This document shows, piece after piece, positions 5,063-6,913 of a DNA stretch of 18,279 nucleotides (position 1 is the first letter of the stretch; each line of letters opens with the position of its first letter). The notes beneath the pieces were generated by a model that worked only from the letters and a program-made list of their open reading frames with translations, was not told where the DNA came from and ran no database searches. Both the position numbers and the translations under genes were made by a program. The stretch is from a virus (lineage: Duplodnaviria > Heunggongvirae > Uroviricota > Caudoviricetes), in IMG/VR virus record IMGVR_UViG_2695420624_000002, positions 1-18,279 of that record; one strand, given 5' to 3'.

Positions 5063-6913
5063 TTATGCTGCCGGTGCATTTATCTCCAGCACCAGACTTT
5101 CTATCTCAACGCCATACGCTGCATTTTTTGTAACATCCGTCAGCGTCAGCGCATTCAGTCCCAGTGTCAGACCGTCTTTTATAACCTGGAATGCCGGGCC
5201 AGCCACTCCATTCAGTTTCGGAGTAACCGTGGCACTGCCGGCGGTGAACACCAGCTCCAGCGTCTGCCAGTCGTTACCGTAATCGCCGAACTCCCCCAGC
5301 TTCGTGTTTCCGGCTTTCCTGTGATGCATCAGATTCACTCTGCCGTCAGTGGTCTGAGTGAAGTACGACATCAGGAACGGATTACCGGTACCCGTCATCG
5401 CCACACCATCAGGAACGGGAGCATCCGTATACAGATAAATCCCCAGCCCGAACTGATTGTTGGTCAGTGCGCCTGACAGGCGGAACTTACAGGTCAGTCT
5501 GCCGCCCTGTGTCAGCAGGGTAATTGCGTCATCCACCGGATGCGTCAGGGACCAGGTTTTATTGCTCTGCTTGGTGATCTTAAATACACCATCTGACAAC
5601 TGAATTCCGCCATCCTTAATGCTCCAGCCCTGCGCAGCAGCCTCTCCGGCTGCCGGCAGCAGGGAGATTGTGCGAACGGACGTATCTGCAGACGGACCCG
5701 ATGGCGTGTTGCCGCCGGGCGAGGGTTTGATTTCCGGTGCCTTACCACTGATGAAGGCTGAGGTGCGCCCGGCTGCGTTCAGAATAGCGGTTGCCAGACG
5801 ATCCGGAATAATGCTCCTGCGCGCCCATGAACTGAAATGTGTCGGGCGGTTTGATGATACCTGGTTTCCATTCGTTCTCGATGCCGCACCGTAATATCCT
5901 GATGCCGGAATATCCGGATCTTCTGCCGGCGCGTTAGTGGCGGTATTGACGCCGTTACCGTCTGTCATGAAGGGCACAAAATAAACGCCCTCACTCTCCC
6001 TGTTTTTATACCCGCCGTACACGGTGTCGTATTGGGTAGCGTATGTATTTTTCCAGTAATACGTCGTGTCACCACAAATCCACGGCACATCTGCAGCGCT
6101 GCCACCATGGCACTGCGCGTTAAACACGGAGAGGTCAGCACGAAACTGTGTCAGCATGGCTGTAAACAGCGCAGGTTGCTGTGCGTGGGTGGCGGCGCTC
6201 ATGTCAAACTCACCCTGCATCCAGCAGACGGCCAGCAGAACGTTTTTGGGATTTTTCTGCAATGCCGCTTTTGTGCGGGAAATCAGATCCTGATATAACG
6301 GCTTGCCCCCCCCCCAGCGTGCCGAATCCTGACTGGCCCCCGTGGACTCGCTGAATGTCCCCTCCGCGCCCTGGGTAAATGCCGAACCACCACGACAGCA
6401 TGGTACCAGCAGGATCCCCGCGTTATTCGGGATATACGGGAGCAGTTTTTTGGCAATATGTAAACCCTGGCCGACACAGCCGTACTGCCCTTTGCTCAGG
6501 TCAGCCCTCGGATGATTCAGCGTACTCATATCCTGCACATCATGCAGACAGTGGTCAGCCGGAATAATATCGTTATATCTGCAGGCAGCCCCGCCCGGCG
6601 TCACTGTACTGCGGCGCGCCAGCTGTTTAATGCGCGGATCCGGAGCATCGTATGAATCCGGCAGCGGAAGCCCTTCACCGTAAGCCATGGCATTGGACTG
6701 CCCGGCCAGTACGATGACGTAGTACCAATCCGGCTCAGATGAAGGGCCGACCTGTGGCTCTCCTTCAATAGCCACCGCCTGCATCAGTGTGTACGGCGTA
6801 ATGGCAACCGGTCCGCCGTATGGCTGCCAGCCCTCTTTCAGTTTGTGTGTCAGCTTTTCCGCAAGGTCTGACGGCGACGCCGCCCTGACAACATCATAAT
6901 GTTTAATCGACAT
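5063..6913 (-). CDS. nanS-p: NanS-p-type prophage sialate (9-O-acetyl-Neu5Ac) O-acetylesterase, 616 aa
   Basis: N-terminus MSIKHYDVVRAASPSDLAEKLTHKLKEGW is the characteristic DUF1737-type start of the large ORF found downstream of stx/tRNAs in lambdoid prophages of EHEC (from memory); central esterase motif VLAGQSNAMAYGEG (GQSN catalytic-serine motif of the SASA/SGNH family); RBS GGGAGA before the ATG at 6913. Confidence 0.75.
   Translation of the reverse strand: MSIKHYDVVRAASPSDLAEKLTHKLKEGWQPYGGPVAITPYTLMQAVAIEGEPQVGPSSEPDWYYVIVLAGQSNAMAYGEGLPLPDSYDAPDPRIKQLARRSTVTPGGAACRYNDIIPADHCLHDVQDMSTLNHPRADLSKGQYGCVGQGLHIAKKLLPYIPNNAGILLVPCCRGGSAFTQGAEGTFSESTGASQDSARWGGGKPLYQDLISRTKAALQKNPKNVLLAVCWMQGEFDMSAATHAQQPALFTAMLTQFRADLSVFNAQCHGGSAADVPWICGDTTYYWKNTYATQYDTVYGGYKNRESEGVYFVPFMTDGNGVNTATNAPAEDPDIPASGYYGAASRTNGNQVSSNRPTHFSSWARRSIIPDRLATAILNAAGRTSAFISGKAPEIKPSPGGNTPSGPSADTSVRTISLLPAAGEAAAQGWSIKDGGIQLSDGVFKITKQSNKTWSLTHPVDDAITLLTQGGRLTCKFRLSGALTNNQFGLGIYLYTDAPVPDGVAMTGTGNPFLMSYFTQTTDGRVNLMHHRKAGNTKLGEFGDYGNDWQTLELVFTAGSATVTPKLNGVAGPAFQVIKDGLTLGLNALTLTDVTKNAAYGVEIESLVLEINAPAA

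What the first reader, a model, noticed from the sequence alone, without database searches (positions are those of the whole stretch)
6306..6315. G10 homopolymer tract inside the nanS-p coding sequence
The esterase gene contains ten consecutive G on the coding strand (plus C10 at 6306..6315) encoding W-G-G-G (TGG GGG GGG GGC). Mononucleotide runs of this length are rare in E. coli coding DNA and are classic slipped-strand mispairing sites; a +/-1 change would truncate the esterase after about 200 residues. It may be a phase-variation switch or simply a sequencing-error hotspot that happens to be in frame.
Basis: seen in the sequence. Interest (0 to 1): 0.5.

Follow-up and report, generated by a model that had tools for sequence, protein, structure and literature searches.

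The report
Slippage-prone G10 run in prophage esterase
A run of ten G's inside a prophage sialic-acid esterase gene is real and was created by a single base change; natural E. coli isolates have repeatedly gained or lost one G there and broken the gene, so it looks like an accidental mutational weak spot, not an evolved on/off switch.

Summary
C10 at 6306-6315 (+) is G10 on the coding strand of a 616-aa DUF1737-SASA-DUF6645 (nanS-p-type) esterase, ORF 5063-6913 (-). It reads TGG GGG GGG GGC, W200-G-G-G203.

It is not a sequencing artefact: the identical protein is on 102 contigs and the identical 80-mer is in 38 complete genomes.

It is not a family feature. None of 120 homologue cluster representatives has WGGG. 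The common allele is GGGGGGTGGG (WGVG), found in 608 complete genomes and 59 of 60 IMG/VR hits. G10 comes from one T-to-G change (V202G, window 6309). At least three DNA haplotypes carry it, each matching a T-bearing twin at all, or all but one, other sites.

Where G10 exists, its length varies:
- G9: 7 complete genomes, plus short-read drafts and run assemblies.
- G11: draft, metagenome and run assemblies.
- G12: one contig.

These variants lie on several haplotypes, implying at least about 7 independent events. They truncate the protein at 209, 234 or 210 aa, before the catalytic His359.

Best reading: a young, accidental slipped-strand hotspot that causes recurrent inactivation of a prophage accessory gene, here in a prophage remnant. 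An evolved phase switch is not supported but not excluded, because within-culture switching was not measurable.

The parts
6306..6315 (-). G10 homopolymer on the coding strand (C10 on +), spanning codons 200-203: TGG GGG GGG GGC = W-G-G-G.
6309..6309 (-). Gene position 605, the derived base. It is G here and T in the common allele (GTG Val202 becomes GGG Gly202). This single change fuses a G6 run and a G3 run into G10.
   Evidence: Phage 434 and 608 complete genomes have GGGGGGTGGG. The V202 twin of this haplotype (L096) differs from the window allele only at this base over 2.75 kb.
5063..6913 (-). nanS-p-type sialate O-acetylesterase CDS, 616 aa, with domains DUF1737, SASA and DUF6645. The nucleophile Ser73 codon is at 6695-6697 and the catalytic His359 codon at 5837-5839, on either side of the tract.
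   Evidence: Pfam. Alignment to NanS/YjhS 3PT5 (E 2e-122) and to the NanS-p C-terminal domain 6YP6. Annotated 'SASA family carbohydrate esterase' in phage 434 at 99.5% identity. Coordinates.
7994..8243 (-). Three tRNA genes (Arg-tct, Arg-tcg, and a CAT anticodon that PGAP calls Ile) between Q and the esterase. This is a late-region layout of the kind seen in Stx-type lambdoid phages, but with no stx gene.
   Evidence: The same genes are annotated in the near-identical prophage of 2015C-4136CT1.
8454..9149 (-). Antiterminator Q gene upstream. It places the esterase in the phage late transcription unit.
   Evidence: Pfam Phage_antiter_Q, E 1e-92. Annotation.
3499..4803 (-). ORF carrying the C-terminal part of tail-tip protein J. 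It runs across the point near 4563 where similarity to intact relatives ends, and in those relatives the holin gene lies across that point. Holin, lysozyme, terminase, head and tail genes are missing, so the esterase sits in a prophage remnant.
   Evidence: Similarity to 2015C-4136CT1 stops at 4563. Pfam Phage_Tail_Tip and Ig_GpJ_C. The same arrangement is present in GCA_001284445.1 (L019), which is 100% identical to the window over 7851 bases.

Best explanation
The G10 run is a genuine, recently derived allele of a prophage nanS-p-type esterase gene. The family's conserved W-G-[V/A]-G motif is encoded here as TGG GGG GTG GGC, so one T-to-G transversion (V202G) produces ten uninterrupted G's. 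That long G:C run is prone to slipped-strand mispairing during replication. In natural populations it has repeatedly lost or gained one G. Each such change shifts the frame at codon 203 and ends the protein at 209 or 234 aa, so the nucleophile Ser73 and the catalytic His359 are no longer in one polypeptide and the esterase is inactivated. The site therefore acts as an accidental mutational hotspot that speeds up decay of a prophage accessory gene. In principle the change is reversible. It does not look like a switch shaped by selection. Shown: the tract, the frame, the derived state, the natural length variants on several haplotypes, and the truncations. Inferred: replication slippage as the cause, loss of enzyme activity, and absence of adaptive value.
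For: 1. The allele is real. The exact 80-mer with G10 occurs in 38 complete E. coli genomes. The exact 616-aa protein is on 102 contigs from NCBI, ENA and Logan. Seven loci carrying it were read back and all have G10.
2. The allele is derived. None of 120 homologue cluster representatives has WGGG; 74 have WGVG and 27 have WGAG. GGGGGGTGGG is in 608 complete genomes and 59 of 60 IMG/VR loci. Chromosomal NanS has WGTD at this site. Three protein haplotypes are in the collection in both V202 and G202 forms: 155/102, 143/27 and 560/12 contigs. For a fourth, the V form is on 88 contigs and the G form is known only from RefSeq genome L013. The V twin of the window's haplotype differs only at base 605 over 2.75 kb.
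3. The tract is hypermutable. G9 is in 7 complete genomes and also in draft and Logan run assemblies. G11 is in a metagenome assembly, a draft genome and Logan run assemblies. G12 is on one contig. All tract lengths were verified by reading the DNA. G9 lies on haplotype A, B, B', a mosaic C and a 434-like haplotype. G11 lies on A, 434-like and D. Apart from the tract, the gene copies of haplotype A are identical.
4. The closest relative of the window, 2015C-4136CT1, has C9, and its gene is annotated as a frameshifted pseudogene.
5. Control. The interrupted allele shows a -1 variant (G5TG3) in 10 records against 608, and no +1 variant. The G10 allele shows 7 against 38. Odds ratio 11.2, Fisher p = 5e-5, not corrected for clonality.
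6. Indel rates in E. coli rise exponentially with homopolymer length (PMC8510543).
7. The gene is also lost in other ways: an N-terminal truncation (L010), a C-terminal deletion (L012) and a 14-bp duplication (L032). The window's prophage is itself a remnant.
Against: Some G9 calls are probably assembly errors. AUSMDU00014361 has two further 1-bp deletions in the same gene. AUSMDU00002545 has a frameshifted lysozyme next door. The window and 2015C-4136CT1 also differ by a C6/C5 indel at about 7907. The single G12 contig (DEC10F) was not examined further and its sequencing method was not checked. The counts are not phylogenetically independent: the haplotype-B G9 copies are identical over 5 kb and may be one event. 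The high fraction of copies keeping the in-frame G10 (about 85%) fits a young neutral hotspot and equally fits selection holding an ON state, so adaptive value is not excluded. No read-level data were available, so the actual slippage rate is unknown.
Confidence: 0.75

Rival explanations
1. The tract is an evolved simple-sequence contingency locus. It is maintained because stochastic, reversible ON/OFF switching of the esterase is advantageous, for example by varying mucin-sialic acid use or virion decoration.
For: An uninterrupted G10 in an ORF, with both -1 and +1 frame variants in nature on several backgrounds. The T-to-G change that makes the tract occurs on several haplotypes, which could mean it is repeatedly favoured. 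The gene product acts on host mucus sugars, and its N-terminal DUF1737 domain decorates the capsid in phi24B (bioRxiv 10.64898/2026.04.10.717836). That is the kind of host-interaction function phase-variable genes often have. The OFF products keep the DUF1737 domain.
Against: The tract is a minority allele: 45 against 608 complete genomes and 1 of 60 IMG/VR loci. It is absent from all 120 homologue cluster representatives. It is one mutation old on each haplotype. It sits at codon 200 of 616, not near the 5' end. The length spectrum is narrow and about 85% of copies in complete genomes have G10. The window's copy lies in a prophage remnant with no lysis or capsid genes. From general knowledge, E. 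coli is mismatch-repair proficient and is not known for homopolymer-based phase variation. The NanS-p diversity paper PMC10462455 contains none of the six terms searched (frameshift, truncated, homopolymer, pseudogene, premature stop, poly).
Confidence: 0.1
2. The G10 in this window is a base-calling or assembly artefact of the true GGGGGGTGGG sequence, for example a systematic T-to-G miscall after a G run. The length variants would then be homopolymer errors.
For: Some complete assemblies with G9 contain neighbouring 1-bp indels typical of consensus errors. From general knowledge, Illumina chemistry is known for GGT-to-GGG type systematic errors.
Against: G10 is found in 38 complete genomes from several independent projects, and on 102, 27 and 12 contigs for three haplotypes. 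Strain 2013C-3277 gives G9 in two assemblies that differ elsewhere. G9 and G11 are also present in short-read-type assemblies: MEGAHIT-style metagenome contigs, Logan run assemblies and NCBI drafts. G9/G11 variants keeping G at the former T position are what slippage of a real G10 would give.
Confidence: 0.03
3. The run is a programmed recoding site. Transcriptional slippage or ribosomal frameshifting on G10 would yield a second protein, or would rescue G9/G11 alleles.
For: Long homopolymers can cause RNA polymerase slippage (general knowledge; also mentioned for Buchnera poly(A) tracts in PMC2831843).
Against: Both alternative frames stop after 6 codons (-1) or 31 codons (+1), so there is no conserved alternative ORF. 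The tract is not conserved in the family. From general knowledge, slippage in E. coli is documented for A/T runs, not G/C runs.
Confidence: 0.02

Closest known systems
NanS-p prophage sialate O-acetylesterases of EHEC/STEC lambdoid phages (for example 933W Z1466 and phi24B gp84), and chromosomal NanS/YjhS
   Same: Same three-domain architecture, DUF1737-SASA-DUF6645. The SASA core aligns to NanS 3PT5 at E 2e-122 and the C-terminal domain to NanS-p 6YP6. Same position between Q/tRNAs and the holin in the late region. 96% DNA identity to the copies in Stx1a phages and 99.5% to phage 434.
   Different: This allele carries Gly202 instead of Val/Ala/Met, which creates G10. The host prophage has no stx gene and has lost its lysis and morphogenesis genes.
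Homopolymer frameshift alleles of Listeria monocytogenes inlA (A7 versus the interrupted A2GA4 tract; Orsi et al. 2010, PMC2831843)
   Same: Within one species, an uninterrupted homopolymer allele and an interrupted, stable allele of the same codons coexist. The uninterrupted one has repeatedly lost a base in nature and truncates the protein.
   Different: That tract is poly(A), 7 nt long and near the 5' end, and the authors argue for regulatory use. Here the tract is poly(G), 10 nt long and mid-gene, the uninterrupted form is the rare derived allele, and nothing indicates regulatory use.
Poly-G/C contingency loci of Campylobacter, Neisseria, Haemophilus and Bordetella
   Same: A G:C run of 9-11 nt inside an ORF, with ±1 changes that switch the reading frame.
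   Different: In those organisms the tracts are conserved across strains, span many lengths and switch at high rates, in some of them in hosts lacking mismatch repair (general knowledge). Here the tract is young, rare, mostly one length, and sits in a repair-proficient host.

Membership tests
NanS-p / SASA-family prophage sialate O-acetylesterase | Domain architecture: N-terminal DUF1737, SASA (SGNH-type) catalytic domain, C-terminal DUF6645 lectin-like domain | tested here: met
   Pfam hits PF08410 (2e-15), PF03629 (9e-13) and PF20350 (5e-18), all above the curated cut-offs.
NanS-p / SASA-family prophage sialate O-acetylesterase | Catalytic nucleophile Ser in the GQSN block, and catalytic His near the C-terminal end of the SASA domain | tested here: met
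   In the alignment to NanS 3PT5, GQSN (Ser73) and THFSS (His359) are conserved. Which residues are catalytic is taken from general knowledge of NanS, not tested here.
NanS-p / SASA-family prophage sialate O-acetylesterase | Located in the late region of a lambdoid prophage, downstream of Q and upstream of the holin | tested here: met
   Q at 8454-9149 and tRNAs at 7994-8243. The holin follows in intact relatives. In the window it has been deleted.
NanS-p / SASA-family prophage sialate O-acetylesterase | Deacetylates 5-N-acetyl-9-O-acetyl neuraminic acid | not testable with these tools
   This needs an enzyme assay. The effect of V202G on activity is unknown.
Simple-sequence (slipped-strand) phase-variable contingency locus | Uninterrupted repeat tract inside an ORF or promoter, long enough to slip | tested here: met
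   G10 inside the ORF.
Simple-sequence (slipped-strand) phase-variable contingency locus | Tract length differs between isolates and produces in-frame and out-of-frame states | tested here: met
   G9, G10, G11 and G12 were all observed.
Simple-sequence (slipped-strand) phase-variable contingency locus | The tract is retained across alleles and lineages, showing selection for mutability | tested here: not met
   0 of 120 homologue representatives carry it. 608 complete genomes have the interrupted form against 45 with G9 or G10. In IMG/VR the split is 59 to 1. The tract is one mutation old on each haplotype.
Simple-sequence (slipped-strand) phase-variable contingency locus | High-frequency, reversible switching within a clonal population | not testable with these tools
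   This needs raw reads or a fluctuation assay. Only consensus assemblies were available.
Programmed frameshift / transcriptional slippage recoding site | A conserved alternative-frame ORF downstream of the slippery run | tested here: not met
   The -1 frame stops after 6 codons and the +1 frame after 31.
Sequencing or assembly homopolymer artefact | The variant is confined to one assembly or one project and is not reproducible | tested here: not met
   The identical G10 allele is in 38 complete genomes and on more than 100 contigs from several sources. Some G9 calls do look like artefacts.

The most novel reading that the evidence does not exclude
The T-to-G change that creates G10 has arisen or spread repeatedly on different nanS-p haplotypes because the resulting tract gives lysogens a heritable, reversible ON/OFF switch for the esterase. 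The OFF product would still supply the DUF1737 capsid-binding domain. This would be a homopolymer-based contingency locus in mismatch-repair-proficient E. coli, carried by prophages of STEC and EPEC.
Probability: 0.07. Interest if true: 0.55.

Novelty: new member of a known kind. Interest (0 to 1): 0.25.

Why it matters
For annotation, this is a site where nanS-p copies will be called intact or 'frameshifted' depending on one G. Counts of functional nanS-p paralogues in STEC and EPEC genomes, especially from indel-prone assemblies, should be checked here. For biology, it is a clean natural series of a protein motif (W-G-V-G, encoded in G-rich codons) sitting one substitution away from a hypermutable tract: interrupted run, then G10, then G9 or G11. 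All three states occur at one prophage locus in a series of near-identical complete genomes that includes the O26:H11 strain 2013C-3277. It shows how prophage accessory genes can decay through a two-step route. It does not change what is known about NanS-p function or about phase variation unless within-culture switching is demonstrated.

Tried and rejected
1. Literature. Three papers were checked by term search. The NanS-p diversity paper PMC10462455 has no occurrence of frameshift, homopolymer, truncated, pseudogene, premature stop or poly. A search for strain 2015C-4136CT1 found nothing.
2. IMG/VR scan. A variable-gap pattern allowing tracts of 8-13 nt returned only 10-nt tracts, 59 interrupted and 1 G10. 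It added frequency information but no length variants.
3. Recurrent mutation versus gene conversion. I tried to decide whether T605G arose repeatedly or moved between paralogues by short conversion tracts. The haplotypes compared (A, B and 434-like) are identical from about position 366 to 731 apart from site 546 in the 434-like group, so the two cannot be separated.
4. One event or several in haplotype B. The 5-kb flanks of the G9 copies are identical to each other and to a G10 copy, so there is no resolution.
5. Sequencing error for the window's own G10: rejected.
6. Recoding: rejected because the alternative frames are short.
7. Structure prediction was not run. The alignment to NanS 3PT5 already shows that position 202 is variable (T in NanS; V, A or M in paralogues).
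Full report
**1. Observation**

The plus strand carries ten C's at 6306-6315. The minus strand therefore reads ...CGC T GGGGGGGGGG C AAG.... The only long ORF over this position is 5063..6913 on the minus strand, 616 aa. The T at 6316 is the first base of codon 200, so the codons are TGG GGG GGG GGC, W200-G201-G202-G203.

Pfam gives DUF1737 (4-49), SASA (66-262) and DUF6645 (467-577). The protein aligns to E. coli NanS/YjhS (PDB 3PT5, E 2e-122) and to the NanS-p C-terminal domain (6YP6). The closest phage record is phage 434 at 99.5% DNA identity, where the gene is annotated 'SASA family carbohydrate esterase'. Stx1a phage copies are about 96% identical.

The run is the only G/C run longer than 6 in the window. 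By composition alone, 0.033 runs of this length are expected in 18.3 kb. Of 200 dinucleotide shuffles, 7 reached the observed number of G9 matches. In K-12, G:C runs of 8 bp are already called outliers (PMC8510543).

**2. Context**

The window is 100% identical over 7.85 kb to a contig of assembly GCA_001284445.1. It is a lambdoid prophage remnant.
- Upstream of the esterase lie Q (8454-9149), three tRNA genes (7994-8243), a TerB-family pseudogene and a DUF3927 gene.
- Downstream, similarity to intact relatives stops at 4563, a point that lies inside the holin gene of those relatives.
- The sequence then continues into the C-terminal part of tail-tip protein J, followed by lom, a tail-fibre gene and an NleB/SseK-family effector gene at the window edge.
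- Lysis, packaging and head genes are gone. An IS110-family transposase gene lies in the early region.

**3. The G10 is real but is not a family feature**

The exact 80-mer centred on G10 occurs in 38 complete E. coli genomes. The exact 616-aa protein is on 102 contigs from several sources. Seven such loci were read back and all have G10. A sequencing error in the window is therefore excluded.

The tract is missing from the wider family:
- Of 120 representatives of homologous protein clusters, none has WGGG. 74 have WGVG, 27 have WGAG and a few have other residues.
- Chromosomal NanS has WGTD at this site.
- With identical 35-nt flanks, GGGGGGTGGG is found in 608 complete genomes and in 59 of 60 IMG/VR loci, against one G10 locus.

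G10 is therefore GGGGGGTGGG with T changed to G at gene position 605 (window 6309), which converts Val202 to Gly.

Three protein haplotypes are in the collection in both forms:

| Haplotype | V202 contigs | G202 contigs |
|---|---|---|
| A (window type) | 155 | 102 |
| B (includes O26:H11 strain 2013C-3277) | 143 | 27 |
| 434-type | 560 | 12 |
| D (O103-type) | 88 | none in the collection; present in RefSeq genome L013 |

At the DNA level, the V twin of the window's haplotype differs from it only at position 605 over 2.75 kb. The haplotype-B and 434-type pairs differ at one additional site each.

The T-to-G change has therefore either happened several times or been copied between paralogous nanS-p genes by short conversion tracts. 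These cannot be separated, because the compared haplotypes are almost identical for more than 100 bp on each side. From general knowledge, a substitution that extends a run at its border is what transient-misalignment ('dislocation') mutagenesis predicts. This was not tested.

**4. Where G10 exists, its length varies in nature**

- **G9.** With the same flanks, G9 is in 7 complete-genome records and G11 in none.
- **Closest relative.** Strain 2015C-4136CT1 is 99.98% identical to the window over 13.7 kb. It has C9, and its gene is annotated as a frameshifted pseudogene.
- **Predicted truncated products** (exact look-ups). The G9 product (209 aa) is on 6 contigs, the G11 product (234 aa) on 2 to 4, the G12 product (210 aa) on one contig (strain DEC10F), and the G8 product on none.
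- **Assembly types.** The contigs were retrieved and the tract lengths read directly. They include NCBI draft assemblies, Logan assemblies of sequencing runs and a metagenome assembly, so the variants are not confined to complete-genome (long-read-type) assemblies.
- **Haplotype backgrounds**. G9 is on haplotype A, B, a B-like type, a mosaic type and a 434-like type. G11 is on A, the 434-like type and D. This implies roughly seven or more independent events, while the rest of the 1851-bp gene is unchanged within haplotype A.
- **All three states in one series.** In one series of near-identical complete genomes, which includes the O26:H11 strain 2013C-3277, all three states occur at the same prophage locus. 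CP074760 has the interrupted run, CP074928 and many others have G10, and CP074942, CP074876 and CP074868 have G9.
- **Control.** The interrupted allele has a -1 variant (G5TG3) in 10 records, of which the five listed include O157:H7 strains. These are probably one inherited event. It has no +1 variant, against 608 intact copies. The G10 allele has 7 frameshifted against 38 intact. The odds ratio is 11.2 and p = 5e-5, not corrected for shared ancestry.

**5. Caveats on the variants**

Part of the G9 signal is likely assembly error.
- AUSMDU00014361 has two more 1-bp deletions in the same gene.
- AUSMDU00002545 has a frameshifted lysozyme gene next door.
- The window and 2015C-4136CT1 also differ by a C6/C5 indel in intergenic DNA near 7907.
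- The sequencing method behind the single G12 contig was not checked.

On the other side, strain 2013C-3277 gives G9 in two assemblies that differ elsewhere by an indel. The short-read-type contigs with G9 and G11 also argue that real variation exists.

**6. Consequence of a length change**

G9 ends the protein at 209 aa, six out-of-frame codons after the tract. G11 ends it at 234 aa. By alignment to NanS, the nucleophile Ser73 lies upstream of the tract and the catalytic His359 downstream. Neither the N-terminal fragment nor the 379-aa C-terminal ORF that gene callers find has both residues. Loss of esterase activity is inferred, not measured.

The N-terminal fragment keeps DUF1737. A recent preprint on phage phi24B identifies this domain as the capsid-decorating part of the protein (bioRxiv 10.64898/2026.04.10.717836). 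In the window's remnant prophage, with no capsid genes, that is irrelevant.

**7. Mechanism and rivals**

The best-supported account is an accidental hotspot. G-rich codons for a conserved W-G-x-G motif sit one transversion away from a G10. Once formed, the run slips during replication. E. coli indel rates rise exponentially with run length (PMC8510543). The frameshifted copies then persist because the gene appears dispensable:
- The 80-mer region occurs in up to five places per genome.
- The same gene is also destroyed by other lesions in three of the eleven G10-carrying complete-genome/IMG-VR loci read in full (L010-L013, L031-L033, L073): an N-terminal truncation, a C-terminal deletion and a 14-bp duplication.

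An evolved phase switch would predict a conserved tract, a broad length spectrum and often a position near the 5' end. None of these is seen. Recoding is excluded by the short alternative frames. What remains open is the actual switching rate within a culture, which needs raw reads or a fluctuation assay.

**8. Comparison with known cases, and verdict**

The gene is an ordinary member of the NanS-p/SASA prophage esterases. The tract behaves like the homopolymer frameshift alleles described for Listeria inlA, where uninterrupted and interrupted versions of the same codons coexist and the uninterrupted one has repeatedly lost a base (PMC2831843). It fails the conservation criterion of classical poly-G contingency loci.

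I found no description of this nanS-p G10 allele in the three papers I term-searched. It is a new instance of a well-known kind of mutational hotspot. It has practical relevance for pseudogene calls in STEC and EPEC genomes and modest biological interest.

Noticed in passing
window 4563 (junction); 3499-4803, 2807-3466, 1429-2748, 1-981 (all minus strand): The prophage is a remnant. About 500 bp downstream of the esterase stop codon, the sequence jumps from a point that in intact relatives lies inside the holin gene into the C-terminal part of tail-tip protein J. Then follow lom, a tail-fibre gene and an NleB/SseK-family type III effector gene that runs to the window edge. The same junction is present in GCA_001284445.1 (L019).
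   Followed up: partly
window ~7902-7907 versus L003: Over 13.7 kb, the window and the near-identical prophage of strain 2015C-4136CT1 differ at three sites: the G10/G9 tract, this intergenic C6/C5 indel, and one mismatch (BLAST tally; position not located). Indels in a run this short suggest consensus errors in one of the two assemblies.
   Followed up: partly
gene position 605 (window 6309) across loci L001, L013, L031, L033, L094-L100: The T-to-G change that creates G10 is found on at least three DNA haplotypes. Each has an otherwise identical or near-identical T-bearing twin. This implies either a recurrent substitution at the border of a G run or short gene-conversion patches between nanS-p paralogues.
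   Followed up: partly
L032 (NZ_CP074991.1, strain 10159), about 226 bp into the esterase gene: A 14-bp insertion (GGCTTACGGTGAAG), which looks like a tandem duplication, frameshifts an esterase copy that still has G10. L010 has an N-terminally truncated copy, and L012 a copy whose C-terminus is deleted and abuts a tail-tip gene. The gene is often inactivated by routes unrelated to the tract.
   Followed up: partly
L002 (phage 2B8, LR595859.1) 1501-3478: The esterase gene of phage 2B8 matches the query in two overlapping pieces (query 1-962 and 836-1851), which indicates an internal tandem duplication of about 127 bp. In that record it is annotated as two 'Mobile element protein' CDSs. Its tract reads GGGGTGTGGG.
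   Followed up: no
window 13101-14378 (-) and ~7390-7820 (-): An IS110-family transposase gene sits in the early region of the prophage. Between the tRNAs and the esterase, the near-identical prophages of 2015C-4136CT1 and 382634_2f carry a TerB-family gene annotated with an internal stop. Both are further signs of prophage decay.
   Followed up: no
complete genomes H176-H180 (for example O157:H7 PV15-279 and 86-24): Ten complete genomes, including O157:H7 strains, carry GGGGGTGGG, a -1 frameshift in the G6 part of the interrupted allele. This is probably one inherited nanS-p pseudogene of an O157:H7 lineage.
   Followed up: no
window 8168-8243 (-): ARAGORN calls this tRNA Met (anticodon CAT), whereas PGAP annotates the same gene in relatives as tRNA-Ile. 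That fits a lysidine-modified tRNA-Ile2 of the kind carried by Stx-type phages.
   Followed up: no
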